From the NCBI GenBank assembly GCA_951406725.2, contig OX597821.1:7440001-7504000 (forward strand): a stretch of 64,000 bases of DNA. The letters are read 5' to 3'. Positions 6,873-54,181 of the stretch are shown here, piece after piece. How positions within the stretch are numbered: the stretch's first letter is position 1; the number at the start of each line of letters is the position of its first letter. A program made the translations under genes and the position numbers. Origin of the DNA: Octopus vulgaris (Eukaryota). The notes beneath the pieces are model-generated. The model had not been told where the DNA came from. It made no database searches and was given only the letters and a program-made list of their open reading frames with translations.

Positions 6873-7077
6873 CGGAGTAAACACATAAATGTGAAACAAG
6901 GTGGAAAAAAGAGCACTCAAATACCAGGAGTAGAGTAATATGCTTTATTTAAAGGCAGCAGAAATTCAACAAAACCTGTTACTTGGAGTTTCACGTTCCC
7001 ATTTGTCAACGAACGGGAACGTGAAACTCCGAGTAACAGGTTTTGTTGAATTTCTGCTGCTTTTAAATAAAGTATAT
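6873..7077. mobile_element. Asymmetric palindromic Penelope-like insertion with decayed hammerhead motif
   Basis: ~65-bp inverted arms (6938-7077) plus one-sided extension, inside (TA)n; ACG-GGAA-CGT-GAAA-CTCCGAG-TA-ACA at 7013-7038. Confidence 0.6.
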
Positions 7078-10000
7078 ATATATATATATATACACTCACA
7101 CATACATGTCTGAATATATGTATCTGTATGTATGTACAACAAGCTTCTTCAAGTTTCTGTCTACCAAATTCCCTCAGAAGGCTTTGGTCAGCCTTGGGCT
7201 ATAGTAGAACATAGCTGCCCTTGGTGCCATCCAGTGGGGCTGAAGCAAAGTCTGGTTGGAAAGCAAGCTTCTTATCCACACATTCATACCTGCACCTGTC
7301 TTTGTTTACCTATGCCATCATATAGGGGTCCATATACAGCATGGGCTCCCAACTTCTGGTGGATTTTTTGGTGTACAATCATGCCATGTGGAACGTTGTG
7401 GGAATTTTATACCCAGCAGAGCTCATCACTCTTTGAGTTGGAACACAAGTGATTCCTTCCTGAAAGAGTGACAGACAGACAGACAGAGCAGAATTGACTC
7501 TGTACAGAACTGGTACTTTATTTATTGAGTAAAAGACAAAGTTGACCTCAACAGGATTTAACTCTGAGTACAGAGATTAAGAACGAATATAATACTGCAA
7601 GACAATCTGTCTGATGGCCTACAATCTCTGCCATTTGGCCTTGTCTTGTTTTTATATGTGTATGTTTGAGTTTTGTAAAATAATATGGTTTAGTGTTCTG
7701 CTAGGAGAGGTGAGCCCTGACATTCTAGGTAGAACCCTTCTTATCCCATGGCTGTATGGTTAAGGATCTTGCTTTGCAGTCATGTCGTTTCAGGTTCTGT
7801 CACACTATATGGCACTTTGGGCAAATGTCTTCAGCCCAAGGCTGACCAATGCTTTTTAAGTAAATTTGGATGATGGAAACTTTGTGGAAGCCCATTGTGT
7901 GCGTGTGTGCCTTTATCTTTCAGTTTGTCCCCCTCTTGTCAACCAGAATTAGCTTGTTTAAACTGCTATAACTTAGTGGTCTGGTGAAAGGCATCAATAG
8001 CAGAAGCACCAAACTAAGCCCTTCAATGCAGTAATCCAGCATGGCCACAGCCCAATGTAAAAGAAAAACTAAAATGTATTTCACTAATTTCACCAGGTTT
8101 CCTTTGTGTTTGTGAAACCCAATCGTATGGATGATGCTTAATAGACCCTAGATTTCTGACCACATCATGCTGATTCAAACTGATGAGATCAAACTAGATC
8201 AAAATAGTAGCCATCTACGAATGTTAAGGACTGTGATTAAAATGGAAAAAGAAAAACAATTTAGTCCAATGCATAAAGATAACATATTTTATTTATATCT
8301 TTCATTTCACTCGCAAAAATACATAAATAAATAAAAGCAATATGGATTCTTGATGATAACTCCCTCTCTTGCCACAGTAAAAAAACTGCCTACTGATATA
8401 TTTGTTTGTGTGTATTGTGTGTGTCTGAGTGCTGCACTTTGTTTAGAGTGTCATGGAATATTAAAAGAAGCAGTGATTTATAGCAGAGTGTCTTATGGGA
8501 GTACTGAACACATGTGAAATATTTATTTATTTATTTTGTTTGTTAATTTTATTTATTAATTTGTTCATTACAGAGATTTGTAGTTAGTCAAATACAAGTC
8601 GGGTAGGTGCATGTGTGTGCATAGAGCTTCATAATACTTAATGATTTAAAGCCAAAATAACTAATAGCTACACATTACTTAGTATCCATGGAGAAGATGG
8701 AGAATTGGGGAAAAGTCTAAGTGTATACTGCCAGAAAATGCCTGTGTATAATGATGCCAACAGAAGAATTTCTGAGATCTACAGTGATTAATATAGATTT
8801 TAAATTTTGGCATAAGGTTAGCAAGTTTTGGGGGAAGGGGTAAGTTGATTATAACGACCCCTGTGCTCAACTGGTACTTATTTTATCAACCCCAAAAGGA
8901 TGAAAGGCAAAGTTGATCTCAGCAGGATCTGAACTCAGAGACTCAGAATATAAGAGCAGATGAAATGCTTCTAAGCATACTAACGATTCTGCCAGCTTGC
9001 TGCCTTTATAGTGATTAATATCAAAATTAGCTGACTGAATCGCTACTGTGTTGCAAAAAAGTACTTAGCAGCATTTCTTCCAATTTAACAATCTGAGTTC
9101 ATCTTCCACCAAGGTCAGCTTTGCCTACCATTCTTTCAGGGTCGATAAACTAGGTACCAGCTGAACACTGGGGTTGATATAATCGACTTACTCGCTCCCC
9201 CAAAATTGCTGGCCTTGCTCAAGACTCCAGGAGTTTGGGGGAGTATAGAAATACCCTTATTCCCAGGCTCCCTTTAGACACCACTGTCCCTGACTTGGGA
9301 TTATAGTCCCTGTGAAGGGTGGCCCCAGTTATGGATCAATTAACAGAATTTGGTCCTATGGTTATGGCATACTTGATTTGAAGGTGGGGTGGTCCCTAGA
9401 CATGTGTCATACATGACCCATTGATGTGTGGGCATACCCTGATATTATGTGGACTGGTCAAGTTCCTTGAGCCATAGGTTCTACTCCCCAGGTCTGGGTT
9501 TAGATATTCCTCTTCTGGATGGGACACCAGTCTGTCACAGAGTCACTTATTTTTGCCAGTTGAGAATAGAGTGGAGAAACATGAAATGAAGCGATTTGCT
9601 GCTGAACACACTGCATCGGCTGCTCCAGGAATCAAAACCATAATCTTAGGATCATGAGTGCAGCTGTAAACCACAGAGCACCACATGTGAGCCAGTGTCC
9701 TTACTTAAAAGTTAAATAGACCCTGTGCCTGAAGGTTAAGGATACCAGCAGAGTAAATATAAATAATCAAGTGAGAGGAAATGCAAAACACCAGTGGTGT
9801 ATCTTACCCGCAAAAAATCATGTCTTTTCAGACTTCTGAATGGATGCGCAGACACAGCTGTGTGGTTAAAAATCTTCCTTCCTAATCATGTAATCTTGTG
9901 TTCAAACCCACTGCAAGGCATTTTTGGCTTGTGGCTTCTACTGTTGTCAACCAAAGCCTTGTGAATGGATTTGCTAGACAGACACTGAAAAAGGCTCATC

Positions 10001-10315
10001 ACACATGCACACACACACACACACACACACACGTGTTATACAAGCAGTGTCAATCATTTCCAATATTCTTTGAAAACCTGTCTGGCCATTGAAAACTATT
10101 ACCTTGCTTGGAAACCGGTTAGAAAATCTGCTTGAATAAACTCCATTTAACCCATTCAAGCAAACGTTTAAACAATGATGACGATGACATTAGAAATTCT
10201 AGTTAAATTATTAAACTACCATGCTTTGATTCCACATTAGAAAGTGGGGCTAATTTACATTGACTCTCGGAACTGGTGCTAAATTTTTAAAAATTATTTT
10301 AATTGCCACTGCATA

Positions 10316-10486
10316 GGCGCAGGAGTGGCTGTGTGGTAAGTAGCTTGCTTACCAACCACATGGTTCTGGGTTCAGTCCCACTGCGTGGCATCTTGGGCAA
10401 GTGTCTTCTGCTATAGCCTCGGGCCGACCAAAGCCTTGTGAGTGGATTTGGTAGACGGAAACTGAAAGAAACCCGTCGTATATATG

Positions 10487-10525
<39 letters not shown>

Positions 10526-10706
10526 ATGTTTGTGTGTCTGTGTTTCTCCCTCTAGCATTGCTTGACAACCGATGCTGGTGTGTTTACGTCCCCGTCACTT
10601 AGCGGTTCGGCAAAAGAGACCGATAGAATAAGTACTAAAGGTGGTGCTCCAGCATGGCCGCAGTCAAATGACTGAAACAAGTAAAAGAGAAAAGAGTAAA
10701 GAGAGA
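10316..10706 (+). mobile_element. SINE family A, young copy
   Basis: A-box TGGCTGTGTGG, B-box GGTTCAGTCC, internal (TA)n(TG)n, tail GACTGAAACAAGTAAAAGAG; ~40-bp internal deletion versus 60303. Confidence 0.9.
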
Positions 10707-11025
10707 GTGCCAAAGATGCCAACATTGCCGTGAAAATACAAGACCAGGTACTGCAACAGCTTGGGTTTCAAGAGCCCTACAGCTCTTCAATATTCTTCCA
10801 AAATGGTGTGGATGTAGGTGTTTTCAGAGCAAAACTGGTTCTCCTCCTGTCAAGGGTTCTGGATGAGCCTATCTCACAGCAGGAAACGCAGATGAGGGCA
10901 GCAACATCAAACTCCCTCATTCACCAAATGCCGCAATATCAGAGGTGATTTCAAATGGTGAAGGTTTAGCTAAGCCAACGGTGGTGCCCCAGTGTTCAAA
11001 TTGAAACTAGTAAAAGAGAGAAATA
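10707..11025 (+). pseudogene. 3' end of CR1-group LINE (ORF2 C-terminus plus 3' UTR)
   Basis: Frameshifted VPKMPTLP*KYKTRYCNSLGF/RALQLFNILPK/GVDVGVFRAKLVLLLSRVLDEP...RAATSNSLIHQ, stop at 10948; 3' UTR resembles the SINE A tail. Confidence 0.7.
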
Positions 11026-11268
11026 AATCTTTTAACTGACCGCATTCAGGCACTCACTGAATTAAACAGCAAAATTATTTTGTATTTTAACTACCATTAT
11101 TAAACTCAGTCCAAACCCATTTCATCTGGCCATTTTGTAATTGTAACATCATCACATCTGTCGCCCTTGTTGTAGTAATTGCAGAATCAATTAAATTATG
11201 GTAAATATAGTAATTTTTTTTTGTTGTTTTTGTTTTTCCCTTTCAATTATTATTATCATTATTAGGAA

Positions 11269-11670
11269 GGCAGCTAGCTGGCAGAATTATTCAAACGCCA
11301 GACAAAATGCTTAGTATTTCGTCTGCTGCTATGTTCTTAGTTTAAATTCCACTGAGGTCAGCTTTGCCTTTAATACTTTCAGGGTCGATGAATTAATTAC
11401 CAGTTACACACTGGGGTCAATATAATCAACTAGCCCTCTTCCCCAAAAGTTTTCAAGGCCTTGTGTCTAGAGTAGAAATAATGATAATAATAATAATAAT
11501 TATTATTATTATTATTATTAAGGTGGTGAGCTGGCAGAATTGTTAGCATGCTGGGTGAATTGCTTAATATTTCATCTGTTGCTACATTCTGAGATCAAAT
11601 TCTGTCAAGGTTGACGTCGCCTTTCGTCTTTCAGGCTCGATAAAGTAAGTACCAGTGAAATACTGGGGTT
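11269..11670 (+). mobile_element. Two tandem SINE family B copies
   Basis: GGC/TGGTGAGCTGGCAGAA heads at ~11269 and ~11522, core motif, (AAT)n(ATT)n spacer. Confidence 0.75.
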
Positions 11671-11738
11671 TCCACCTTGGCATCTAAAACTCGGAGTTTT
11701 ATCATGGCTACCAAATAATAGTCACATATTACTTTTAC

Positions 11739-11804
<66 letters not shown>

Positions 11805-12100
11805 GCAAGCTATGACCCTAACAAACTTCTTAGTTCTTAGAAGTATAGTATACTCTGAGTCACATTAGTAGCAACATGGACCTTTTCCCTCTTCTTGCTC
11901 TATTAGAGAATTGGAGTAAAATTATATTAATGTGTCCAACTGATTAAAAAATTATATTTAATTTATGCAGCTGAGGATAGCCCTGCATTTAATTTGATTT
12001 AATGATTCCATTGTTCAATTAAATGAAGCCGCTTGAAACGGTCGTACTGCATCACCTCTTGACATCCTGTTGCTTATTTTGATTATATATATATATATAT

Positions 12101-12500
12101 TACTCTTTACTCTTTTACTTGTTTCAGTCAGTTGACTGCGGCCATGCTGGAGCACCGCCTTTAGTCGAGCAAATCGACCCCGGGACTTATTCTTTGTAAG
12201 CCCAGTACTTATTCTATCAGTCTCTTTTGCCGAACCGCTAAGTGACGGGGACGTAAACACACCAGCATTGGTTGTCAAGCAATGCTAGGGGGACAAACAC
12301 GGACACACAAACACACACATACATATATATACATATATACGACAGGCTTCTTTCAGTTTCCGTCTACCAAATCCACTCACAAGGCATTGGTTGGCCCGAG
12401 GCTATAGCAGAAGACACTTGCCCAAGATGCCACGCAGTGGGACTGAACCCGGAACCATGTGGTTAGTAAGCGAGCCACTTACCACACAGCCACTCCTGCG
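12101..12500 (-). mobile_element. SINE family A, young near-full-length copy
   Basis: Near-identical reverse complement of 59850-60251 and 60303-60703. Confidence 0.9.
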
Positions 12501-12531
12501 TATATATATGTATATATATATATGTGTGTAC

Positions 12532-12562
<31 letters not shown>

Positions 12563-13166
12563 TGAACATATGTACTGCACTGTGTGTGCCTGTAGTCAGT
12601 TTTCCATTCAATGTGTTTTTTTTGTTTTTTAATTTCTATTTATTTATTTATTATAGTTTCTTCTTCCCTCACCAGTTCTATGATATTGATTTCTTTCTTT
12701 TGCCCTTTCTTCTTTGCTTGAGATTTCCTTCTGGTTAAAAACTTCTTCGAAATTAATCATTATATGTATGTGTATGTAGGTATATGTATATATGTGTACA
12801 TGTATGCTTGTATGTTTGTACATGTATGCTTGTATATATGTATATATATATGTATCTGTATGTGTGTGTATATTTAGATATTGCTGTTGTTTCTGTTCTA
12901 CACGTCTATCATTCCTTTTTTTCTTTACCACATGATGTTTTTGATGTGATGAAATTATTTCAAGTTTTAACAAGAATTATTAGAAAATATTTTTTTCTTT
13001 ACATACTATCTCCTCCTCATCCTCCCCCCTCTCTCTCTCTCTCACTCACTCACTTTCTCTTCCCCCCCCTCTCTCTCTCTCACTCACTGAAATACATTGT
13101 TATAATTTTCATGAAAATATTTCATGTTTCAACAAGAATTATTAAAATTTTTAGAAAAGCTTCTTT

Positions 13167-13167
<1 letters not shown>

Positions 13168-13210
<43 letters not shown>

Positions 13211-13235
13211 ATATATAAATTGATAGATATAGATA

Positions 13236-13276
<41 letters not shown>

Positions 13277-13301
13277 ATATATAAATTGATAGATATAGAT
13301 A

Positions 13302-13338
<37 letters not shown>

Positions 13339-13465
13339 ATATATAAATTGATAGATATAGATAGACATATATATATATCCATATATAAATTGATAGATAT
13401 AGATAGACATATGTGTATATATATATATATATATATCCACATATAAATTGATAGATGTAGACAGA
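13168..13465. repeat. Compound minisatellite: constant ~30-bp core separated by variable (AT)n
   Basis: Five copies of CCATATATAAATTGATAGATATAGATAGAC, each separated by (AT)n of different length. Confidence 0.9.
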
Positions 13466-15596
13466 CACACACATGCATATATACATACATTAGACAGAGA
13501 GATTGTACTGTATCTTACTCATTAAAATCTATATAGTTGAGATTTCCCAATTTCCTCTCCGACTAAATAGTATTTTAAACAAGAGTAAATCTCTTCAATA
13601 TTTTCATAATACTGGTTTTCATTTTTTTCCTCTTTCCCCGTATTATTCTTCTACCGTTTTTTTTTTTTCTTTGTTTTTCTCACTCATCTTGAACACATTC
13701 AAGTTCAGTCTAATGTCTTTTAGCCCTTATAGCCCTACGTCCTTGGGCTTCTGCTGAGACTATTGTCCTTGTGCTTCTTAAGTGACTGTGTTCAGGTTCT
13801 TGCGATCTGTGTGTGTGTGAATCTCATCAACAGTAGCAGTATTGTTCTTATGTATTCTTTTCTGTGCCGGCATGAGTTAGATGTGACTTCCTAAGGCAGG
13901 TTTGTTTCCTTGAGGCCAGTCCTTTCAGTGACCTGTTCTAATGTGTCAGAAATGCCCATATACCAAGAATTGATGTGGTTTCAGTATCTAGGATGCATAT
14001 TTGATGCTAGCATGAGTCAGTCATAATTTTTTGAGACAGATTTTCCACAGCCCACGTCTTTCAGGTTTTGGATTGTCAATTTCAGGCAATCCAAAGCCTG
14101 AAAGAGACAAAGCTTCTCTGTTTGAGGCTTGCAAAAAAGTTGCTTGGAACTGGATCAAATTATTAAAAATAATACATGTAACTCTTACTAAATGTACTGA
14201 GTGTCCTTTTCTTTTGTTAATCCACTCACGTAATAGCATCCATGCGGTGCCACATAAAAGCACCTTCTACACTCTGTAAAGTGGTTGGTGTTAGGAAGGG
14301 CATCCAGCCGCAGAAACTATGTCAAATCAGACTGGAGTCTGGGGATACCGCCCACCACCACCATCATGCCAGCTCTGGTCACGCCATCAAATCCATGCCA
14401 GCATGGACGATGGATGTTAAATGATGATGATGATATATAGCCACCTGGATGAATTCTAACCCATGTAGGCATGGAAAAATGGATGTGAAAATGGTGGCGA
14501 TGATCAATGATTATCTATACTTTGGTAAACATTTTTCTTGCAAAATTTCAGTAAAAAGCATGCATTATTAAATAAGTTCTAAGAAAACCTGTTGGAACTG
14601 GTGGTGGTGGTGGTGGTGGTGGTGGTGGTGGACATTACACTCTAGTTATGCCAAGAATCAATTCTCAGATCTGTAAGACCTTCACTTAGAGTTAACAGTT
14701 ATGATAGTTGTGTGTAACGAAGATACTTTCTCTTCTCCGGAAACCCTACATAGAACACAATCTAAATCCAATGGATTGATAGCTTGATCTTGGCTCTAGT
14801 ATTAAAGCAGAGACTTCAATTAATACTAATTAGTTATTTCTCTGTAAATACTGAACAGTTGAGGAATTTGTCAAATAAATCTGTCAGTCTACTCAGTTAA
14901 TAAGTTAACTTTAATTAAATTTAATTAATTAACAAGAAGCTGTTACTGAAATTGGTTTCTATTTGGCATGGTTTTATTTTATTTTTTTCATCTTTTTTTT
15001 TCTTTTAGTTTTCTCCGTAGGAAACTGCAAATGTTGAATATTTTAATTAAAAAAAAGAAAAGACTTTTATCTCACATTTCATCATTTAAAGGATTAATTG
15101 TTAATTAATAACTTACTGGTCAGTAAAATTATTCTGGATTAAAAGAAGGAATGTGTTTTTAATCTGCATAAAAAGTAATTATGTTTCATATTAGAATCAT
15201 GATTATAAATATCTTTCATCTTTTACTTGTTTCAGTCATTGGGCTGCGGCCGTGCTGGGGCACTGTCTTGAAGGGGTTTTAGTGAAACAAATCAACCCCA
15301 GTACTTTCTTTTTTATAGAGTTTCAGCATTAGGAAGGGCATCCAACCATAGAAACCATGCCAAAACAGACATGGGGCCCAAGCAGCTCTTCAGCTCCTGT
15401 CAAACCATCCAACAGATGTCAGCATCGAAAACAGACATTAAATGATGATGATTATGATGATGGTGGTGACTTATTCTATCAGCCTCTTGTTCTGAACCAC
15501 TAAGTTACAGGGATGTAAACAAACCAGCACTGGTTGTCAAGCAGTTGGTAGGGGAACATACACAGGCACAAAGATATGCATACAGGTGTGTGTATG

Positions 15597-15630
<34 letters not shown>

Positions 15631-16512
15631 CATGCACACACACACACACACACATAATGGGCTTCCACATAGTTTTCATTTGCCAAATTCACTCCACAAG
15701 TATTAGTGAGCTTGTGGCTATAGTAGATGGTGCTGCAGAGTGAGATTGAACCCTGAACCCGAAACATTGTGGGTGCAAAATGAGCCTCTTAACCACACAG
15801 TCATGCCATAACTCTCTTAATACTTAAAAATATCGATTTCTGCTTTTGGCCCCAAGGCCACGAATTTCGCAGGGGACAAGCATTACAGTCCAATACTTGA
15901 CTCGTACTTTATTCTATCCACCCAGGAAGGTCAAAAGATGGAGTTGAAGTCATGTGATATCGTAGTTCCACTGCTGGCACTTGATATTCTTCATCTGTTA
16001 TTGATATCTCTTTACTTAGATGCACTAGACTTATATGAGAGTTTCTCAGGATGGTGTCTCAGCATTGTCATAATACATCCACATTACGTAGACTGCCATT
16101 AAGTGTGTGTATGTGTGTATGTGTGTGTGTGTGTGTGTATATATATAATCTACATGTGTATTTCTATGTCTGTGTGTATATATATGTAAAAGACAGGGTG
16201 GTCACAGCTGGAATGCTTTTTCATGCAAAGCAGAGAATGTAAACATTTACACATGCACTCACACATGTACATACACACACACGCCAGGCTTTGTACAGTT
16301 TCTGTCTACCAAATTCACTCACAAGTCATTGGTCAACCAAGAGCTTTATTAGCAGACAATCGCCTATGGTGCCATGCAATAGGACTGAACCCAAAACTAC
16401 ATGGTTGCAAAATGAACTCCTTAACCACACAGCCACCCCTCGCATAATATAATGTGATTGTATTTATTTTAGGATGCTAATAAACTCTGGCAAAGCCAGC
16501 TACCACTATCAG

Positions 16513-16556
<44 letters not shown>

Positions 16557-17743
16557 GGGACATGTGACGTGGGATTACAGCTAAAGTTTCCTAGCCTTTA
16601 TGAATAGCAAAAAAGGTTTATTTAAAAAGGAAAAATCACAGGAGGGGATGTAATACTAGAACTATCAAAACATTTGATATTCTCAGCTGGAAAAGTTATA
16701 GTAATTGCAGCAGGTATGTTCATTAATAAGTAGTGTGTGTGTGTGTATGTGTGTCTTTGTACATGTGTCACCTTTTTAAATAATCCCCCCCACCCGTCTC
16801 CCAGTATATCACATGTCAGCTGTTTCACGGTGTTGGCTGTTGTTGTTGTTATGTATCTGACTTTCTTCATGAGGTTTTGTTCCTCTTTTACTTGTTTCAG
16901 TCATTGGATTGCAGCCATGCTGGAGCACTGCTTTGAAGAGTTTTTTTTTCACTTGAACAAATTGACACTGGTACTTTTTTTTTTTTTTAACTCCCAATAC
17001 TTATTCTGTTGTTGGTCTCTTTTGTTGAATTGCTAAGTTGCAGGGATGTAAATCGGGGGGGGGGTGTCCCCCTCCCCCCCTCCTCCAATGTCTGCCTTCC
17101 ATGCAGGCATGGGTTGGACAGTTTGACAGAAGCTGGCCAGGCAGAAACCTGCACTATACCTTTGAGTCTGCTTTGGTGTGGGTTTTTTACAGCTGGATGC
17201 CATTCCTAACACCAACCACCCTGCAGAGTTGACTGAGTGCTTTTTACATGTCACCAGCATAGGTGAGATCAGTTTTGGCATGGTTTTTACAGCTGGATGC
17301 CCTTCCAAATGCCAACCACTTCACAGTGTGCACTAGATGCTTTTTTTTATTTATGGGCCCTTTTGACTACTATTTCAATCTGGTAGATCCCACATAGCCA
17401 TTCAGTGTTTAAAACTAGTTTTATAGAAACTTCTTTCAAAATACCTATTTAGTAGTTCACATATTAGCTTGTGTAGGTTGAACTGTGTAAAAGTTTAGAT
17501 AAAGAAACCTAGCTGATTCTTGCTATACATGCCAATACATACATCTAAAGCAAAAATTTTTCAGAGACCCTTAAATTACTATTGAGGAACCACAATTATT
17601 TTGTTGTGTGGACCCCACAAAATCTTATATGGATCCTTATAGAGGACCACTGATTTAACCTTTTCATAACCGTATTTATTTTGAGAAGCTCACAAAGCAT
17701 TTTGTACTGTAGCTAATGCTTTTGCCAGCTCTGTATCATTATT

Positions 17744-17953: not shown

Positions 17954-17992
<39 letters not shown>

Positions 17993-18185: not shown

Positions 18186-18218
<33 letters not shown>

Positions 18219-18474: not shown

Positions 18475-18506
<32 letters not shown>

Positions 18507-18988: not shown

Positions 18989-19514
18989 ATAGGAGTGTTT
19001 ATTATTTGTGACAATACAGTCACTAATAGTAAATATACAAATGCTTTGTAGTTAATCTTGCATTACAGACTTTCTTTCTACTGTGTTACTACACAGTGAA
19101 CTAAACAGACTGATTGCTGAGGATCACTGTCATGTCACTTACAACCATAACCACAGATATACACACACATACAGACACACACGTGTATATGTGTTCATAG
19201 ACACACATTAAATAGTATTATGTGTACACTTGTACAAGCACACACACTTGCAAACTTAACATGCTCACATATCCATAAATGTACATAGGCTCACTTGTAT
19301 ACATACTTGCATACACACACACACACACTTGGATTCACATATATGCATATGCACATATGTTCACTTATATATATATAGACACATTTATACACATAGATAC
19401 AGGTCGTCGTCAACTTACGACCCATCCGACTTATGACTGATCGACTTTATGATGATTGGCATGCCAGCTTCCGGCAACAATAACAAATGATCCGGTTGAA
19501 ATCTAATGGGTTTA

Positions 19515-19868
19515 CGGAGATGTACTCGCATAGCAAGTGATTTGATCTGAGATCGTGTGCTGGAACAAAAACAATTGCAGCGTGGAAGGTGTTTGTAAGC
19601 CATTTAAGAAACACACAAAAGCCGTTCGATTCACTTCAACATTTAAGTTTAATTTGTCTAAATATTTTCGTCACTTTAAGACCGTGACCTGTTCACTGAC
19701 AAAATCCGTGCTGCATCTCTGAGATGCAGCACGGATTTTTGTCAGTGAACAGGTCGCGGATTTTAGCGACGAAAATATTTTGACAAATTAAACTTAAATG
19801 TTGAAGTGAATCGAACAGCTTTTGTGTGTTTCTTAAATGGCTTACAAACACCTTCCATGCTGCAATTG
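19515..19868. mobile_element. Asymmetric palindromic retro-insertion (Penelope-like) with 13-bp TSD
   Basis: 149-bp arms centred on 19720 plus ~56-bp left extension; direct repeat TCTAATGGGTTTA at 19502-19514 and 19869-19881. Confidence 0.75.
19738..19787 (+). ncRNA. Minimal type-I hammerhead ribozyme-like motif, G3-C8 core variant
   Basis: UUUGUCA-GUGAACA-G-GUCGC(GGAUUUUA)GCGAC-GAAA-AUAU-UU-UGACAAA: 7-bp stem I, 5-bp stem II, palindromic stem III. Confidence 0.6.
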
Positions 19869-20387
19869 TCTAATGGGTTTAATTTCTTGGAAATTAACCT
19901 GTCTATGGATGATGTCAGCTAACAAACGCTTCCCCTGGGTTTGGTTATCGGTTGCCACTGTGTTGGCTGACAACTATCCTGTCATGGAGACATCTAGGCA
20001 ACCCTGCATTTGTTTGTAAGATGATTGCTTGAGACTCCGAAATTTTTGACTAATGCCAAAATTATAATAGTATAATACAGAATGCTGTGTGTGTCTTTTA
20101 CCTGAGAATTTACCTTAAGAATGTAAAAATATAAAACAAAGCTATGTAAGCCTCTATAGGCCGACTTACAACCAAATCAACTTACGACCAGTCAGCTGAA
20201 ACCAATTGTGGTCCTCAGTCGAAGATGACCTGTACACAATAAGTTATATTACATGAATACCTATTCAAGCACACAGATACTCTCATGCTTACACACACAC
20301 TGAGACTTACATATATATATATTTAATAACAAAGGGTAAAATTCATGGCAAACTTAAGTAATACTAATAAAAGGGTTCAGCAAAGAT

Positions 20388-20541
20388 TTGCTTCACCACA
20401 CACCGAATTTAGAAATAGCAGCCAAAAATCTTAGCTATTTCTTCTACTTTAAAAAGGGTATCTGGAAGACCCTTTTTAAAGTAGAAGAAATAGTTAAGAT
20501 TTTTGGCTGTTATTTCTAAACTTCGGTGTGTGGTGAAGCAA
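20388..20541. repeat. Near-perfect palindrome, ~72-bp arms
   Basis: TTGCTTCACCACACACCGAA...AAAAAGGGT / ACCCTTTTT...TTCGGTGTGTGGTGAAGCAA with ~9-nt loop. Confidence 0.9.
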
Positions 20542-20551
20542 TTTTTTATTA

Positions 20552-29290: not shown

Positions 29291-29490
29291 CCATGCTTGT
29301 ATTGGTCAGATGGAATTGGACTATGCTTGTATTGGTCAGATGGAATTTGGCCATGCTTGTATTGGTCAGATGGAATTGGGCCATGCTTGTATTGGTCAGA
29401 TGGAATTGGACTATGCTTGTATTGGTCAGATGGAATTGGTCTATGCTTCTATTGGTCAGATGGAATTTGGCCATGCTTTATTGGTCAGAT
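29291..29490. repeat. 30-bp minisatellite, about 6.5 units
   Basis: Unit CCATGCTTGTATTGGTCAGATGGAATTGGA/TTTGG, head-to-tail, no spacers. Confidence 0.95.
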
Positions 29491-37298: not shown

Positions 37299-38170
37299 GA
37301 AGGCACCTGGCTTAGTGCTTAGGGTATTCAGCTCACAATCGTAAGGTTATGAGTTCAATTTCCAGTGGCATGTGTTCTTGAACAAGACACTTTATTTCAT
37401 GTTGCTCCAGTCCACTCAAGTGGCAAAATTTTATCGTACCAGTCTTGCCACATTCTGTGTCACACTGAATCTTCCTGAGAACTACAAGGGTGAGTCAAAA
37501 AGTAATGCCATTTTGTTTAGGACAGGTATAATTACCAACACAGGAACATGTATCACACATCAAAATGAAGCTGGTTCTCTGTGGATCACATCCCTACTTC
37601 TCAACTTAATCACCATTTCTTTCAATAGCAATGTTTCACCTTTGAATGAGAGCGTCTATCCCTGCCCCGTAAAATTCTGTTGACTGTTCTTTGAGCCACT
37701 TCTTCACTACAGTTTTCACTTCCTTGTCACTGGAATAATTTAGCGCCTTCAGACTATCATCTCTTCGGCCCCATGAAAGAGGGTTTGAGAGGCAAACATT
37801 ATTCTAGTGACGAGGAAGTGAAAACTGTAGTGAAGAAGTGGCTCAAAGAACAGTCAACAGAATTTTACGGGGCAGGGATACATGCTCTCATTCGAAGGTG
37901 GAACATTGCTATTGAGAGAAATGGTGACTATGTTGAGAAGTAGGGATGTGATCCACAGAGGACCAGCTTCATTTTGATGTATGATATATGTTCCTGTGTT
38001 GGTAATTGTATCTGTCCTAAACAAAATGGCATTACTTTTTGACTCACCTTCGACCATTAAGAGTACATGTGTCTGTGGAGTGCTCAGCCACTTGCTCCTT
38101 AATTTCCCAAGTAGGCTGTTATGTTGACTGGATCAACTGGAACTCATTGCTGGAACCAACAGAGTGCCAA
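37299..38170 (+). mobile_element. SINE family C (tRNA head, CORE-like), interrupted
   Basis: Matches 44988-45305 and 51248-51541; TSD TATACTG(T)CCTTTGT at 37284-37298 and 38172-38185. Confidence 0.85.
37485..38052. mobile_element. Foldback mariner derivative made of two inverted 3' ends
   Basis: ~255-bp inverted arms; 37740-37943 reads LAPSDYHLFGPMKEGLRGKHYSSDEEVKTVVKKWLKEQSTEFYGAGIHALIRRWNIAIERNGDYVEK*. Confidence 0.9.
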
Positions 38171-42283: not shown

Positions 42284-42365
42284 AGCTTACAGCTGTTTCC
42301 ACTATAAGTTTGCAGTCAACTCCTACTTGAGTTCCTGGATAACATGCTATAGCTTCATCAGAGCC
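42284..42365 (-). ncRNA. Type-I hammerhead ribozyme-like motif with long stem II
   Basis: GGCU-CUGAUGA-AGCUAUA...UAUAGUG-GAAA-CAGCUG-UA-AGCU. Confidence 0.55.
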
Positions 42366-42649: not shown

Positions 42650-42932
42650 ATGATGATGGCTGTCCACTCGTGACCGAGGAAGACCATTGCCGATCTTCAG
42701 GAACATTGTGCGTTCTAGGACTAACTTATATTTTGCATTTGCGGCTCCGTTGGTGGCAAATGAGCCCTGCTCTTGACAAGCATACACAACTGCAAACATT
42801 GCAGACCAAGCTTTCCCCATTCACTATACGAGCCGTGCGCTTTCGTGCAGCTTGCTTAAGTTCTTCATGCTGGATACGTGCTCTCTCAAAAGTGTCGATT
42901 CCTCCCTTAACTTGCTTCCTCCATCTGTGGCA
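42650..42932 (-). pseudogene. 3' end of a second RTE-clade LINE with C-terminal zinc finger
   Basis: RWRKQVKGGIDTFERARIQHEELKQAARK...LVCNVCSCVCLSRAGLICHQRSRKCKI*; short 3' UTR ending (CAT)n. Confidence 0.8.
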
Positions 42933-42946
42933 TGTATATGTGTATG

Positions 42947-42993
<47 letters not shown>

Positions 42994-43598
42994 GTGTTTG
43001 CATGCATTTGTGTGTGTTTGCGGTTCCTTGTGTTGAGGTCATCTGATTGTGTAAATGAGTGCTTTTGATTTCCAATATTCTACAACAAAATGTCTCACCA
43101 TAGGGAAATGTTAGCTTGCTTGGAAACGGGAGGGATAGCAGCAGGAAGGAGCATCTGGCTCTGGGATGTCCACATTTGGGTAATACTGTCCCAAATGTGA
43201 AAGCAAAATTCTCACTGTGGGCTTCATCTGCATTTCGTAGAGTATCATTGATTATTGGGCATTGAAGGGCATGTATGTCTCTGGCGCTGCAAACTGCATA
43301 ATAGCCATATATACACACACACACACACACATGTATATATTTATAAACTGATACCAGAATATACACACATGCACATGTATATATTCCTAAATTAATACCA
43401 GAAAGTCTGGCACAAATCTAGGACCGGAGGCATTGTTTATATAGATTCATGTTCGTAGTCATCATCATCATCATCATCAACACTATTATTGTCATCAACT
43501 TTGTTATTGTTGTAGTTAATGAAATACTATCAAACCACTACCCCTACACACATGCACATCCTCTCTCTTACACACACACACACACACACATGCACATC

Positions 43599-43630
<32 letters not shown>

Positions 43631-44987: not shown

Positions 44988-45305
44988 GGCACTCTATCAA
45001 TTATGACAAAGATTCCAGTTGATCCAATCAACGGAACAGCCTGCCTGTGAAATTAACACGCAAGTGGCTGAGCACTCCACAGACATGCATACCCTTAACA
45101 TAGTACTCAGGAAGATTCACTGTGACACAGAGCGTGACAAGGCTAACCCTTTGAAATAGAGGTGCAACTCATTTGTGCCAGCGGAGTGGACTGGAGCAAT
45201 GTGAAATAAAGTGTCTTGCTCAAGGACACAACATGCTGCTGGGAATTGAACTTGCGACCTTACAATCATGAGCGAAATACCCTAACCACTAAGCCACATG
45301 CCTTC
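44988..45305 (-). mobile_element. SINE family C, full length
   Basis: Head TGGCTTAGTGG ... AGTTCAATTCC; core CCTTGAGCAAGACACTTTATTTCACATTGCTCCAGTCCAC. Confidence 0.85.
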
Positions 45306-45897
45306 ATGTATATATAAGCAAATCCAAAAAGAAAAACAGGAAAAGTCAATTAGACGTACACCGTGAATATATTATACTGATGGTCAGTGGAAGTTTTAGA
45401 TGGTAAAATAGGAATGGAAATGACGTTTTGAGCATGGCTCTTCATCAGATAGGGGAAAACGTCCGGAGAGGAAGAAAAGGAGGAAGGAACCGATAGTCTG
45501 GAGAAACGTATGTATGTCATTGCATGGCCTAATATGTGTGTATATATGCACACATACATATATGTATATATGTATGCATATCATCATCATCATCATTTAG
45601 CGTCTGCTTTCCATGCTGGCATGGGTTGGATGGTTCAACTGGGGTCTGTGAAGCCAGAAGGCTGCATCAGGCCCAGTCTGATCTGGCAGTGTTTCTACAG
45701 CTGGATGCCCTTCCTAACGCCAACCACTCCGTGAGTGTAGTGGGTGCTTTTTACGTGCCACCCGCACAGGTGCCAGACGGTGCTAGAAAACGGCCACGGA
45801 CGGATAGTGCTTTTTACGTGCCACCGGCACGGGGGCCAGGCAAAGCTGGCAACGGCCACGATCGGATGGTGCTTGTATATATATATCCATATATACA

Positions 45898-45934
<37 letters not shown>

Positions 45935-45963
45935 ATATATACATGCATATATATATATATATA

Positions 45964-47203
45964 CACAGACATGAGAAGAAAATAGACATCCTTATAATCA
46001 TTAAACTTTATTTAAGTCTGAAATTATACATTCAAATTATTTATTAACTAATATAATGAGAATATTTAATCATTAGTAGACATGCCCATTGCATTTTCCA
46101 GTGCAAGGACCATATTTGGTATGTTACTGATCAGATGACGAATATTCTCTTGTGGAATTTCTTGCCAAGTTTCATGCAGTAATCTCAAAAGATTTGGCTT
46201 TGAATATACTTTCTTGTTCTTTTTATGAAGTGTCCTGTCCATTATGTCCCAGAAGTGTTCAATAAGGTTCATATCTGGTGACTGGTTTGGACAAGAAAAC
46301 TTTCTAATGCCATTCTCATCCAACAAATCTTGAGTCATTTTAGCTGTGTGACAAGGAGTCCCATCTTGCATAAATAAAGAATGTTCATTAATCATTTCAC
46401 CACTGGAGAAAATTGGAAGGAGCGCTTTCTGCAATATGGACACATATTTATCTGAGTTTATGTTTCCCTCACACTCCACCAGCTCCGATTAACCATTGCT
46501 CCAAGTTGCTCCCCAGACCATCACAGAATAGCTGCCATGTTTCATTGTTGGCTGCAATCTTTTCGCATCAAATTCTTGATCACAAAGTCCCCAGACCCAC
46601 ACTCGACCACTGTTAGGAAATACAGCAAATCTGGACTCATCAGAGAATATGACAGTGTCCTGTTAGTGGCCTCTCCACCATCTCACTGGCCCAATCTTTT
46701 CTCCACTTGATGTTGGCTGGTCGAAGAAGTGGTTTTCTTCTTACTGCTCTGTCATAGTAACCAAGTTTGTGGAGATACCTGACAGGTGTTCTGGGACTGA
46801 CATCAACTTATTCTGCTATGTCAGATGCCTTGCAATGAAGATTATCCTCCACACTTCTCTTAGCAAAGAGAAGGGTCTTGTCAGAGGGCCCTAAAGTGAA
46901 GTGATGTTGACTCTTTTCCCTCTCTGGTGAGTTGCACAATCACTCCATTAACTGTAGAAAACGGGATCCCAAGGCTTTCTGTGACTTTACACTGACTATG
47001 TCCACCTTCAGAATGACCCACAATACAGCCTCTTTGAAATTCAGACAGTTCCAAGGCTTCTTTTGTACATGGCATGATTAAACAGTCTCATATAGAACCT
47101 GAAACATAAAAATGTCAATTCATAAGAAATATAAACCTTTACAAGTTAGAATAAACAGTAAACGATGTTTTATGTGGAGTCTATTTACTTCTGTCATGTG
47201 TGC
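45964..47203 (-). mobile_element. Decayed full-length Tc1-like (DD34E) transposon
   Basis: N-terminal [12 protein letters not shown] (46881-47075), VIFSDESRF (~46640), FMQDGTPCH...SPDMNLIE with 34-residue spacing (46066-46479); imperfect TIRs; frame broken. Confidence 0.92.
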
Positions 47204-47221
47204 GAGTGTGTGTATATAAAT

Positions 47222-47353
47222 CAATGAAATTCCAATTTAGTCGGATTTTCACATTTTACTATTTGCAATTTTTACAATTTTACAATATTGAAATTGTAAA
47301 AATTGCAAATAATAAAACGTGAAAATCAGAAGAAGTTGAAATTTAATTGATTA
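47222..47353. repeat. AT-rich imperfect palindrome, ~60-bp arms
   Basis: GATTTTCACATTTTACTATTTGCAATTTTTACAATTT / AAATTGTAAAAATTGCAAATAATAAAACGTGAAAATC. Confidence 0.8.
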
Positions 47354-48584
47354 ATCTTCTATACCCAATCATACAAACTTGGATATATATATATATATAT
47401 ATCATGACAGGTTTCTGTCTACCAAATTCACATGCATGGCATCGGTCAGTGCTCAGCACTGTAGTAGAAGACACCTGGCCATTGTGTCTCAGCATGTGAC
47501 TAAACCTTCTGGCAGTGAATCAGTTTTCTCAGCTACCACAGCCATGCCCGTACCTATATCGTAAAATAATCAAGAACTAAATTACAACTATTCAATGAAC
47601 AACATATTTCATTTCAATTCTAAAAATTTCTTATAAGATTTAATTTGTATATATCAAAATAACCATAAATTTTATTTCTTAAGCATCCTCCTTTCTTCTC
47701 TTCAGCTTTAAATATCAAGTTTGTATCAAGAACATGATTGCTTTCTCAAGAATTTTGTGTAGAAAAGAATGTTTTTTTGTTGCATATTTTTTTATATATA
47801 TATATAACTGTTAATATAAAAATATGATTATGCTTCAATATGGAAATAGAAACTAGGAAAATAAATCTTTATTTTCAAGTATTTGTGTTTTATAAATATG
47901 TGTATGTGTTAGATATGTATCTATCAACACACACACATACACACACGTGTGTATGTATATATTTAACAGTATATATATATATATATGTGAGTACATGTGT
48001 ACACACATATGCACATATACACATATATATATATATACATACATTCATAAATATACACACATATATATACATAGATTTACACATTCATACACACTCATAT
48101 ATATTTATAGCTCCATCTGAGCAGGATCACTACCAGAGCAGCCGCCTGGCTTCCGTGCCGGTGGCACGTAAAAATCACCATTTGAGCATGATCATTATCA
48201 GCGTCGCCTTACTGGCATGTGGACAAAACATTTGAGCTATGTTGTTGCCAGTGCCACTGGACTGACTCCTGTGCAGGTGAAATGTAAAAAACACCATTTG
48301 AGCGTGGCCGTTGCCAGTACCGCCAGACTGGCCCTCGTGCTGGTGGCACGTAAAAGCACCCACTACACTCTCGGAGTGGTTGGCATTAGGAAGGGCATCC
48401 AGCTGTAGAAACTCTGCCAGATCAGATTGGAGCCTAGTGCAGCCATCTGGTTCGCCAGTCCTCAGTCAAATCGTCCAACCCATGCTAGCATGGAAAGCGA
48501 ATGTTAAATGATGATGATATATATATATATATATATATACATATAATATATATATATATCATTATCATCATCATCATGTGTATT

Positions 48585-48631
<47 letters not shown>

Positions 48632-48660
48632 ATACATGTATGTATGTCTGTGTGTGTGTG

Positions 48661-48692
<32 letters not shown>

Positions 48693-49150
48693 TACATACA
48701 TACATACATTCATGCACACAAACACACACACACACACATGTAATCGTTAGATTGTGCAAACGGTAGATATTTACAAATGATGTGAGTTCAAACCTCATGG
48801 ATAGCTTTTGATTTCTTCCATCGAAAGGAACTATTAAACCCAATATTCTGCACTCTATTACTTATTGCTTTATGTGCTTCAAGTTCCACTGTTCCAAAAA
48901 TGATTTCTATGACCTTGTATCTTTTACCTTTTGCTTGCTTCATTCATTTGTCTGTGGCCATGCTGGGGCACCATTTTAAAGGTTTTCTTACTCGAATGAA
49001 TCAAAACTAGTACTTCTTTTTTTTCTGTCAGCCTGGTCCCAATTCTGTCAATTTCTTTTTGCTGAACTGCTGAGAGGCAGAGATGTCAACAAACCAACAT
49101 TGGTTGTCAACCGGTGGTATCAATCACAGACACACACACAAACACACACG

Positions 49151-49193
<43 letters not shown>

Positions 49194-50709: not shown

Positions 50710-50745
50710 CTTTAACGTTTCGAGCCTACGCTCGTCCACAGAAAG
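50710..50745 (-). ncRNA. Minimal hammerhead-like motif, A6U core (sister copies 52127-52161 and 53157-53192)
   Basis: CUUU-CUGUGGA-C-GAGC(GUAG)GCUC-GAAA-CG-UU-AAAG. Confidence 0.45.
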
Positions 50746-51049
50746 GAACACAGAAAGAAACAGGGAGAGAAAATAAAGAATGCGTAGTGGCTAGCAATCT
50801 ATCAAAGACAAGGCATAAATAATGGTTATTACCTTTTTCTTTATTGTTGTTGTAATAACTGTTATTTATGCCTAGTCTTGTATATCGCTCTGTTAAAAAC
50901 CAGTTTAACTGGAACACAACCACAGATTTACAAAAGAGAATGGTAATGAACTATAACCTGAGACTCTGCCACAAGAATACACAAAATTCTTTACTAATCT
51001 AAACAATATCGTTAGTCTGCTGTACTAACAGAGAGCTTAACAGTCCAGA

Positions 51050-51198
51050 AGTGGCAGTTCAGTAAGTAGTTTGCTCACCAACCACATGGTTCCAGGTTCA
51101 GTCCCACTATGTGGAACTTTGGGCAAGTGTCTTCTTCTATAGCCTTGGGCCAGCCAAAGCCTTGTGAGTGGATTTGGTAGACGGAAACTGAAAGAAGC

Positions 51199-51243
<45 letters not shown>

Positions 51244-51742
51244 ATGGTGGAGGTGCAATGGCCCAGTGGTGAGGGCAGCGAACTCTCAGTCATAGGATCG
51301 CAGTTTCAATCCCCATGAGGCTCCTTCTGTACTCTTTCACCTCAACCTTCTCTCACTCTTTCTTCCTGTATTTCAAAGGGCCAGCCTTGTCACACACTGT
51401 GTCACACTGAATCTCCCTGAGAATTACATTTAGGATACACGTGTCTGTGGTGTGCTCAGCCATTTGCACATTAATTTCACAAGTAGTCTGTTCTGTTGAT
51501 CAGATCAACTGGAACCCTCGTCACCGCTGACGGCGTGCCACAATGTATGCATGTGTGTGTGAGTGTGTGTTTATCACCCCACCATCGCTTGACAACCGAT
51601 GTTGGTGTGTTTATATTCCTGTAACTTAGTGGTTCAGCTAAAGAGACCAATAGAATATGTACTAGGCTTACAAAGAATAAGTCCTGGGGTGGTACTCCAA
51701 CATGGCTGCAGTTAAGATGACTGAAACAAGTAAAACAAAAGA
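51050..51742 (+). mobile_element. SINE A with SINE C (51248-51541) inserted at its microsatellite
   Basis: Family A head and tail flank a family C copy. Confidence 0.8.
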
Positions 51743-51840
51743 ATATATATATATAGTTTAACAATCCAATGGAGGTAGAATCAACAAAAAACGTGCTCCC
51801 TCTGGTGAGAGATAAATACTAATTTAAATACACAACCGAA

Positions 51841-51930
51841 AGAGCCACTAATAGTTTCATACTATTATGATACTTGAACAGAAATATTTATAAAATATTC
51901 CATTGTATCTTAAAGCAATCTTCAGGCCCT
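51841..51930 (-). ncRNA. Hammerhead-like motif with extended AT-rich stem II, probably inactive
   Basis: AGGGC-CUGAAGA-...-GAAA-CUAUUAG-UG-GCUCU; the inverted partial arm at ~51987 retains UA-GCUCU. Confidence 0.45.
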
Positions 51931-52853
51931 GCTTTCAGATACATGGTGTATTTTATAAATATGCCTGTTCAATTATCATAATAGCCTGAAACTATTAGTA
52001 GCTCTTTTGGTTGTGTATTTTTGATATAGATATATAGTTGAAATTTACAGTAAAACAAAGGACGAAGGACAGATGTATGAACCACAAGCAGGTGTAATAG
52101 TTTGGAGCTCAAGAAAGTAACATGTGTTTTAGGTTTCAAGCCTATGCTCTTCAACAGAAAGGAATAAGGGAAAATGTGTGTGTGTGTGTGTGTAAAATAT
52201 CTATTACTAGATAAAGATCCTTCCCCAGTCATATAGCCTCATGGGACTGATTTTTCCCAGTTTCCAGTGCTTGTCCACTGGATGTACTCATTTTTGCCAG
52301 CTCAGTGGACTGGGGCAATGTGAAAAAAAAGTATTTTGCTCAAGAGCTCAATGCATCACCCAGTCCAGGAATCGAAACCACAATCTTACGATCATGAGTC
52401 CAACACCCAAACATTAAGCCATGCACCTCCATACACACACACACACACACACATATATTGTGGAGTGTGGTGAATATATATATATATATATTAGCTGTGT
52501 GTGTGTACATAACCTGAATACCTTTCTGCCTGTACTGCAGTACTCGGGTACTCGCGTATATATTTGTCGTGTTTGCATTTTAATTTTGACCCAACCTGGT
52601 TCTTACTATTTAAGTGCCTGATTCACTTGAATCCTAGTCTTTTGTTATATGTATTTTCAAATTTGTGCAAATGTGTATAAAATAATATAACAATGGAATA
52701 AAGTTACAACATGGTCTGGTTTTCACGTATGAAAGCACTACTTGAACATACTAAATATTTTTTTATTGTTAAACACACTTCAACATGTAAAAAAATGTTT
52801 TTGAATACAATAACGGAACTGTGAAAACCAGACCATGTTGTAACTTTATTCAA

Positions 52854-52894
<41 letters not shown>

Positions 52895-53505
52895 TACATA
52901 TAATATTTATAAACAAACCAGAAGGCTTTGTAAGTTGCAGAGAGAAAATTGAGCTATGGGTTAGCTCATTTTTCAGTCAATTTCTTTATATATAAATGTC
53001 GCTTTATATTGGAGAGTATATATATTATTTGTTATGATATATTATTATAGTTATTATATATATGTAGTATTTATTTATAGAAAAACAAAAGACGAAGACA
53101 GGTGTATGAACAACGAGCAAGTGTATTAGTTTGATGCTTGGGAAAAATGAAAAGGTCTTTTATGTTTCGAGCCTATGCTCTTCAACAGAAAGGAATAAGA
53201 GAAAATAAACAGGGAGAGAATGAAAAACACTTGTAGATTTCAGTGGCCCAACATGGTGAATAATTGGGGGAAAAGAGGTTGAAAGAAATGGAGATAATAA
53301 TAAAAAAGGAGGCTGAATGAAAGGGAGATAAAGTGCTAGTGATCCCAACAAGAAAAGGTGCATGTGTGTGTATGTGAGAATGGTGTGTGTGTATGTGTAT
53401 GTGAATAGGGGTGAGTGACTCTGACATGTGTGTGTAGTAGTTGTGTGCTTTTTCACGTGGTGTGTGTGTGTGTCTGTCTGCAACCAAACGGTGTGCATGT
53501 GTATG

Positions 53506-53556
<51 letters not shown>

Positions 53557-53980
53557 GGCAAAAGTTACCTTTGTCTATGTATGTTGCATGTGTTGATGCG
53601 TGTGTATGCATTCAGGAATTACGTGCTTGTGTGGGTGTAGTGTGTGCACTCAGTGTGTGTGTGTGGCTGCTCATATGGTGGTATGTGTGTTGACACTATT
53701 GAAGATTGTGTGTGTGGGTATGTGGATGATGGTGTGGGTGATGGGAAGTGGTCAGCGCTAGTGTATGGAGAGTGGTGTGGGGTTGGTATCAAAAATATAT
53801 ATAAATCTGTCTAATAAAGGCCCGAAACATATGTACCGCTGAATCCTTCGCATCATGTTTTTATTTTATTTTGATCAATTTACTCCACCACCTACACCAC
53901 CAAACGGTATACACAGGTGCTTATAATTATCAAGTACTCACCCCGAATTTCTATATAAGTATATATATATATATATATAT

Positions 53981-54181
53981 GTAGGTCCCGGGTTGAGTCG
54001 GGGTTAACCACAGTAAATAAGGTACTCAATACATAGCAGAGTAAATTAATTTATTTTATAGAAGGAGCTTCTACAGGACTAGAACTGTTTCATTCAAAAG
54101 AAATCATCAGGAAGCTCCTGATGATTTCTTTTGAATGAAACAGTTCTAGTCCTGTAGAAGCTCCTTCTATAAAATAAATTA
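53981..54181. mobile_element. Asymmetric palindromic Penelope-like insertion in (TA)n
   Basis: Essentially perfect arms 54047-54181 plus one-sided extension; (TA)n on both sides. Confidence 0.75.
54064..54118 (-). ncRNA. Type-I hammerhead ribozyme motif
   Basis: GGAGCUUC-CUGAUGA-UUUC(UUUU)GAAU-GAAA-CAG(UUCUAGUC)CUG-UA-GAAGCUCC: 8-bp stem I, canonical core, U-U at the base of stem II. Confidence 0.7.

What the first reader, a model, noticed from the sequence alone, without database searches (positions are those of the whole stretch)
6873..54181. Several unrelated short insertion families each carry a minimal hammerhead ribozyme motif
Seen: about ten type-I hammerhead-like motifs in at least six sequence-unrelated contexts (7004, both arms around 19720, ~41475, 42284, 45419, 50710/52127/53157, 51841, 54064). 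The three best-preserved share one layout: one-sided extension, arm, inverted arm, with the motif beside the symmetry centre. Two sit in (TA)n and one has a 13-bp TSD. Known: Penelope-like elements carry minimal type-I hammerheads with palindromic stem III in their pseudo-LTRs and often insert with inverted termini. Inference: a diverse, non-coding, ribozyme-bearing retroelement system (Penelope-dependent or retrozyme-like) at roughly one copy per 6-7 kb here, which ordinary annotation would miss.
Basis: partly seen in the sequence, partly recalled or inferred. Interest (0 to 1): 0.8.

Follow-up and report, generated by a model that had tools for sequence, protein, structure and literature searches.

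The report
Penelope retroelement tail-end remnants with hammerheads
These short hairpin-shaped inserts are the usual tail-end leftovers of Penelope-like jumping genes, which carry a small self-cutting RNA motif; the one unusual point is a very abundant family whose motif has two paired core letters swapped, and cutting has not been shown.

Summary
The motifs are real: 6 hits against 0.18 expected, 0 of 300 shuffles. The rest are swapped (19720, both arms), truncated, decayed or unsupported (41475). One canonical motif was missed (11971). The layout of arm, inverted arm, one-sided tail and (TA)n or a 13-bp TSD is the published insertion form of 5'-truncated Penelope-like elements (Craig 2021; Cervera 2014). 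Three inserts (7004, 51841, 54064) share stem III sequences, (TA)n context and a downstream hairpin with published Hydra-clade PLE 3' ends. There are no tandem units, and all inserts keep sequence 5' of the cut site, so they are not retrozymes. No PLE ORF was found, so the link rests on resemblance. The novel part is the 19720 family. It is laid by thousands of contigs in runs of three organism codes and has a G3-C8 core in place of C3-G8, with stems intact. I found no natural G3-C8 report, but one key paper was unreadable. This scan has noted both the layout and G3-C8 before on other DNA. Activity is untested.

The parts
6873..7077 (-). Fold-back PLE remnant in (TA)n: 65-nt tail 6873-6937, sense arm 6938-7007, inverted arm 7008-7077; hammerhead 5' core cut at the pivot; Hydra-type stem III; bulged hairpin at 6935
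   Evidence: comparison
11965..12052 (+).
19515..19869 (-). Fold-back remnant of a very high-copy family: tail 19515-19570, arms 19571-19719 and 19722-19869, 13-bp TSD; inserted in a MITE-like host (about 19400-20243)
19738..19787 (+). Hammerhead-like motif with G3-C8 core and an extra G after A9; stem I 7 bp, stem II 5 bp, 6-nt palindromic stem III, U17 at 19780
   Evidence: family check
19653..19703 (-). Second G3-C8 motif (tail-bearing arm); mismatch next to the cut site; the family majority base restores the pair
   Evidence: row 19659
42284..42365 (-). Canonical core, 8-nt perfect palindromic stem III, stem I 4 bp, 54-nt stem II region; single arm
45420..45450 (-). Decayed minimal hammerhead (G12A, stem I 2 bp)
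   Evidence: (loosest tier only)
50710..50745 (-). Minimal hammerhead-like motif, family with U6
51757..52020 (-). Fold-back remnant: tail about 51757-51825 (boundary by eye), arms 51826-51910 and 51937-52020; hammerhead 51841-51930 with long loop II and G17; Hydra-type stem III; hairpin at 51811
52126..52161 (-). Decayed copy of the U6 family
53157..53192 (-). Decayed copy of the U6 family
53982..54181 (-). Young fold-back remnant in (TA)n: 65-nt tail 53982-54046, arms 66/66 identical; intact canonical hammerhead 54063-54119 (cut after 54072); hairpin at 54041

Best explanation
These are extremely 5'-truncated insertions of several Penelope-like element (PLE) families, at least three of them Hydra-clade-like. 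Shown: hammerhead motifs above chance, head-to-head arms, a one-sided tail, (TA)n or TSD flanks, no tandem units, sequence kept 5' of the cut site, and a very high copy number for the 19720 family. Inferred from published PLE biochemistry: the PLE protein nicks AT-rich DNA on both strands and primes reverse transcription inside its RNA at two sites just 3' of the hammerhead. Each cDNA stops shortly 5' of the hammerhead and the two are joined head to head; the one from the distal site carries the tail. The template was uncleaved RNA. The genomic fold-backs are inert, because a read-through transcript has only one sense hammerhead and pairs it into the arm-arm duplex. The 19720 family carries a natural G3-C8 version of the core pair, probably a slow or protein-assisted ribozyme in its parent element.
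For: Shuffle tests. Craig 2021 describes 5'-truncated copies with an adjacent inverted copy and a one-sided tail. Cervera 2014 reports solitary min-HHRs from truncated PLEs, pairs on opposite strands, an extra nucleotide after A9 and palindromic stem III. Craig File S2 lists Hydra-clade hammerheads with the same stem III as 7004 (Hydra-1/2_aJap) and 51841 (Penelope-1_HM), and the same ACAG/CTGT stem III arms as 42284 and 54064; 26 of 27 listed Hydra families prefer (TA)n. A bulged hairpin sits 31-45 nt after the cut site, at the arm/tail junction, in 7004, 51841 and 54064; these are the only 3 descriptor hits in 64 kb. I read a similar hairpin by eye in 3 of the 5 Hydra consensus 3' ends I saw; the other 2 end before it. 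Frangieh 2024: two internal RT start sites define the tail, uncleaved RNA is the main template, and C3G/G8C partly rescues cleavage. 19720 family: 17,644, 15,186, 1,523 and 6,805 contigs laid in four runs, with a shared end at 19511-19512 in all four. Whole-element folds are one long duplex, -100 to -244 kcal/mol.
Against: No direct link to a PLE ORF. None of 450 ORFs hit an RT or GIY-YIG family. Two protein searches with the 19720 frame found nothing. Six window 13-14-mers had no match in the Craig supplement. Tails are 56-69 nt, longer than the 30-40 bp quoted. The hairpin count alone is not significant (18 of 300 shuffles reach 3) and its descriptor was built from these copies. The 19720 family has no such junction hairpin and no assigned clade. 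Its stem III self-duplex is weak (-0.2 kcal/mol), and the G after A9 departs from the published H consensus. No whole genome was available.
Confidence: 0.8

Rival explanations
1. At least the 19720 family is a self-standing non-autonomous element (PLE-mobilised, SINE-like) with its own short transcript of about 200-250 nt, not a truncation product of a coding PLE.
For: Very high abundance; many contigs lose shared sequence near the pivot (loose ends at 19705 in 54, 61 and 41 contigs become AT-rich and discordant); no protein match. Li 2026 proposes non-autonomous PLE derivatives.
Against: Other contigs (43, 53, 8, 21) continue 5' with one shared sequence that resembles an intron end (the resemblance is my reading), and joints show many different pivots. 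Truncation just before the hammerhead is seen in all four fold-backs here.
Confidence: 0.15
2. Non-LTR retrozymes that spread through circular RNA made by two hammerhead cuts.
For: Type-I hammerheads in short non-coding repeats; retrozymes are known in molluscs.
Against: No head-to-tail hammerhead repeat; arms are inverted; copies keep sequence 5' of the cut site; motifs are minimal or decayed.
Confidence: 0.04
3. The G3-C8 motif at 19720 is a dead or chance look-alike, or the fold-backs are MITEs.
For: 1 of 300 shuffles gave a G3-C8 hit at loose thresholds; activity is untested; fewer than half of the loose ends reach the core (median 11-15 nt) and the 4-contig consensus of run X5 does not show it. 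The U6 family suggests that dead cores can spread.
Against: 0 of 150 shuffles at stem I >=7 and stem II >=5; both arms carry it; the consensus shows it in 3 of 4 runs; stems I and II are the predicted fold (P 0.87-1.0 for 11 of 12 pairs); a one-sided tail and a 13-bp TSD are not MITE features (own knowledge).
Confidence: 0.25

Closest known systems
EN+ Penelope-like element insertion unit (Craig et al. 2021, PMC8557442; read: passages, File S1/S2 tables and part of the consensus file)
   Same: 5'-truncated copy with adjacent inverted copy, one-sided tail, hammerhead near the 3' end, microsatellite targets.
   Different: Only the last 100-200 nt are present; tails are 56-69 nt rather than 30-40; no ORF.
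Hydra-clade PLEs (same paper)
   Same: Stem III palindromes, U-U beside the core, (TA)n targets and downstream hairpin for 7004, 51841, 54064; a Hydra family is listed for Octopus bimaculoides.
   Different: The window motifs are not Hydra-1_Obim (different hammerhead); long stem II regions at 11971, 42284 and 51841; membership by RT phylogeny is untestable here.
Minimal type-I hammerheads of metazoan PLEs (Cervera and de la Pena 2014, PMC4209133; read: parts 1-2 of 4 and passages of one supplement)
   Same: Extra nucleotide after A9, G10.1-C11.1, palindromic stem III, many divergent families per genome, opposite-strand pairs; natural U3-A8 variant.
   Different: The G3-C8 core with G after A9 (19720) and U6 (50710 family) are not described in the parts read.
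Poseidon element PAc of Anolis (Frangieh et al. 2024, PMC11167929; read: parts 1-2 of 4)
   Same: Explains the tail and the use of uncleaved RNA; C3G/G8C partly active.
   Different: There the swap is a laboratory mutant, here a family sequence; a different clade.
Metazoan non-LTR retrozymes (Cervera and de la Pena 2020, PMC7229834, passages; Li et al. 2026, 10.64898/2026.07.22.740005, parts 1-3 of 5)
   Same: Non-coding, type-I hammerhead, PLE-related.
   Different: Defined by head-to-tail repeats and circular RNAs; neither is seen here.

Membership tests
Penelope-like elements (EN+) | ORF with PLE-type RT and GIY-YIG endonuclease | tested here: inconclusive
   0 of 450 window ORFs hit such families; this is expected for 3' remnants; no genome to follow longer copies.
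Penelope-like elements (EN+) | 5'-truncated copy with adjacent inverted copy and one-sided tail | tested here: met
   4 fold-backs; tails longer than published.
Penelope-like elements (EN+) | Minimal type-I hammerhead with palindromic stem III near the 3' end | tested here: met
   compared.
Penelope-like elements (EN+) | AT-rich or (TA)n target, variable TSD | tested here: met
   (TA)n at 7004 and 54064; 13-bp TSD at 19720; none found at 51841.
Hydra clade | RT/EN phylogeny | not testable with these tools
   No coding sequence in the window.
Hydra clade | Hydra-type hammerhead and (TA)n preference | tested here: met
   7004, 51841, 54064 against File S2, by eye; not met for the 19720 and 50710 families.
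Non-LTR retrozyme | Head-to-tail repeats each with a hammerhead | tested here: not met
Non-LTR retrozyme | Circular RNA monomers | not testable with these tools
   Only contigs were available.
Hammerhead ribozyme (19720 motif) | Core C3 U4 G5 A6 N7 G8 A9 | tested here: not met
   G3 and C8; the 3-8 pair is kept.
Hammerhead ribozyme (19720 motif) | Three stems, GAAA, A15.1-U16.1, H17 | tested here: met
   Stem I 7 bp, stem II 5 bp, palindromic stem III (weak), U17.
Hammerhead ribozyme (all motifs) | Self-cleavage after H17 | not testable with these tools
   Needs an in vitro assay.

The most novel reading that the evidence does not exclude
A very high-copy animal PLE family, shared by several related species, uses a working hammerhead with a natural G3-C8 core that standard CUGANGA descriptors miss. 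A neighbouring family spread with a U6 core that should be nearly dead, and Hydra-type ends carry an undescribed conserved hairpin marking the RT start site. This would give natural comparisons for whether PLE hammerhead cleavage matters, and may mean that some PLEs called hammerhead-less carry swapped-core motifs.
Probability: 0.35. Interest if true: 0.55.

Novelty: new variant of a known kind. Interest (0 to 1): 0.33.

Why it matters
The system as a whole is known, so it matters mainly for repeat annotation: such remnants are easily filed as MITEs or unknown repeats. The role of PLE hammerheads is still open (PMC8557442, PMC11167929). A very abundant family with a G3-C8 core would show natural covariation of the 3-8 pair in an animal retroelement, and would show that ribozyme counts based on CUGANGA are too low.

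Tried and rejected
Rfam scan: no hammerhead among the 150 hits shown, only microsatellite and hairpin look-alikes. A metagenome scan with a 22-nt stretch gave one hit, L001, without hammerhead stems or family context, taken as chance. A viral-contig scan for a generic G3-C8 pattern gave 62 loci; 1 of 62 had a stem I of 4 or more pairs, with a poor stem III, and was not counted. The 68-codon frame through the 19720 arm and tail (one stop) has no protein relative, so a coding role is unsupported. No RNA holder is on record; run X5 is only guessed to be RNA, so nothing is said about expression. No end pile-up at the cut site among the rows shown (1,603 loose-end rows not shown; contigs cannot show RNA ends). 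Summed contig depth is not used as a copy number. The 42361 and 11971 energy rows had wrong bounds and were dropped (redone). The A-U versus G-C change in stem II between the two 19720 arms is not counted as covariation: both changes are CpG-type and the family majority has G-C. 41475 rejected as a hammerhead. Fold-backs at 20382, 37489, 47216, 52685 and 63181 show no convincing motif. Six G3-C8 9-mers in the Craig supplement gave 3 hits, none in a 3' hammerhead. Literature searches for a natural G3-C8 core found only laboratory mutants; a search for hammerheads in octopus found only Craig 2021 as relevant. Lunse 2017 (about PLE hammerhead variants, recalled) is not held, and one supplement of PMC4209133 could not be searched; either may already list G3-C8.
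Full report
Setting. The window is 33-42% GC and full of microsatellites and short interspersed repeats. No whole genome is held. The repeat landscape looks like an octopus genome to me; this is recalled and no call names the organism. Of 450 filtered stop-to-stop ORFs of 45 aa or more, only two Tc1-type transposase pieces and one tandem-repeat artefact hit Pfam.

Observation. I searched both strands with a type-I descriptor taken from the published PLE min-HHR and compared with local dinucleotide shuffles. Canonical core: 3 hits (11971, 42361, 54110), shuffle mean 0.01, 0 of 300 reach 3. With one mismatch, any Watson-Crick 3-8 pair or G17: 6 hits (adds 19745, 50741, 51925), mean 0.18, 0 of 300. 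The loosest tier gave 16 against 3.9, so several of those are chance. The descriptor was adjusted twice, which inflates significance somewhat, but the margins are large. 11971 was missed.

Anatomy. Four inserts have head-to-head arms with the motif next to the pivot and a tail on one side only. Arm identity runs from 66/66 (54064, young) to 75/85. Tails are 65, 56, 65 and about 69 nt. Two inserts lie in (TA)n and one has a 13-bp TSD inside a MITE-like host. In every case the sense strand reads: inverted copy, pivot, hammerhead, a short stretch, tail. All arms keep sequence 5' of the cut site, so the template RNA was not cleaved (inference). No hammerhead is in a direct tandem repeat. A transcript through a fold-back has one sense hammerhead only, and the predicted fold pairs it into the arm-arm duplex, so these copies should be inert.

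Identity. Craig 2021 gives this layout as typical of PLE insertions. Cervera 2014 reports thousands of heterogeneous solitary min-HHRs per genome, pairs on opposite strands, and links them to truncated PLEs. In Craig File S2 (34 rows) Hydra-clade hammerheads have the stem III of 7004 and of 51841 exactly, and the ACAG/CTGT arms of 42284 and 54064; 26 of 27 Hydra families are listed with (TA)n preference. A bulged hairpin lies 31-45 nt after the cut site and 3-15 nt beyond the end of the short arm in 7004, 54064 and 51841. These are the only 3 hits of its descriptor, though the count is not significant (18 of 300 shuffles) and the descriptor was built from them. I read a similar hairpin by eye in 3 of 5 Hydra consensus ends; 'hairpin' and 'stem-loop' do not occur in that paper's main text. 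Six window motifs had no exact match in the supplement, so these are not the published octopus consensus families as far as that test reaches.

Mechanism. Frangieh 2024 showed for an Anolis PLE that the protein cuts both strands of AT-rich DNA and starts reverse transcription at two internal sites 3' of the hammerhead, the stretch between them being the tail, and that cleavage is not needed. Two short cDNAs, one from each site, stopping just 5' of the hammerhead and joined head to head, give the structures seen. Applying this here is inference. Whether the stop reflects truncation or run-off at the RNA 5' end is open.

The G3-C8 family. The 19745 motif has stem I of 7 bp, stem II of 5 bp with G10.1-C11.1, an extra nucleotide after A9, GAAA, a 6-nt palindrome and U17, but G3 and C8. 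Stems I and II are the predicted fold. No shuffle of 150 gave a hit of this quality. Laid on four public runs of three organism codes, 1,523-17,644 contigs per run map here, summed depth rises about 400-fold at the tail end in run X1, and all four runs share an end at 19511-19512. Loose-end consensuses at 19765 from 57, 51 and 39 contigs read through the same G3-C8 core in three runs. Against this: median loose length is 11-15 nt, so under half reach the core, and the 4-contig consensus of X5 does not show it. None of the 40 substitution rows shown falls on the core, while neighbouring positions do; 259 rows were not shown. So the swap is most likely the family sequence, not damage to this copy. 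Laboratory C3G/G8C mutants are partly active, G3-C8 is reported as poorer with C17, and this family has U17. Natural U3-A8 is known. My searches found no natural G3-C8, but Lunse 2017 was not readable. Earlier notes of this scan record G3-C8 in phages and beside PLE RT genes of other genomes; I did not check them, and my own viral scan found no clean case.

Papers seen: PMC8557442 passages and supplement parts; PMC4209133 parts 1-2 of 4 and passages of one of its supplements; PMC11167929 parts 1-2 of 4; Li 2026 parts 1-3 of 5 (its supplements are closed); PMC3088659 passages and section 8; passages of PMC6765202, PMC8495972, PMC3884650, PMC6155905, PMC7229834 and PMC13282606 (which lists 31 recently active Penelope-like families in O. 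vulgaris and does not contain the word hammerhead).

Verdict. Real motifs in a known system: PLE 3' remnants (0.8), not retrozymes. One probable new natural core variant in a very abundant family, activity unproven. Interest 0.33.

Noticed in passing
   Followed up: partly
window 19400-20243: MITE-like host with inverted ends into which the 19720 element inserted; itself a repeat family. Tc1/pogo affinity is recalled, not tested.
   Followed up: partly
5' of window 19718 (loose ends): Longer copies of the 19720 family continue with a shared sequence that resembles a branch point, pyrimidine tract and AG just before the pivot, as for the intron end beside the D. virilis Penelope hammerhead.
   Followed up: no
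window 50741, 52157, 53188 (-): All three copies of this family have U at core position 6, which should cripple cleavage; may be a family that spread with a dead ribozyme.
   Followed up: partly
window 46069-46807 (-): Broken Tc1-type transposase (DDE_3 E 3e-9, HTH_Tnp_Tc3_2 E 6e-8).
   Followed up: no
window 37489-38048 and 63181-63786: Long fold-back elements (about 250-nt arms) without convincing hammerheads; probably DNA-transposon MITEs.
   Followed up: partly
window 20382-20547, 47216-47355, 52685-52862: Shorter fold-backs next to (TA)n without a detected hammerhead; could be PLE remnants cut 3' of the motif or MITEs.
   Followed up: partly
window 42726-43079 (-): ORF ending in a C2H2-like motif, resembling the 3' end of an RTE-type LINE (recalled; not among the ORFs scanned).
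   Followed up: no
window 29291-29490: 30-bp tandem repeat, 6.7 copies; gives a spurious Pfam DUF5001 hit.
   Followed up: no
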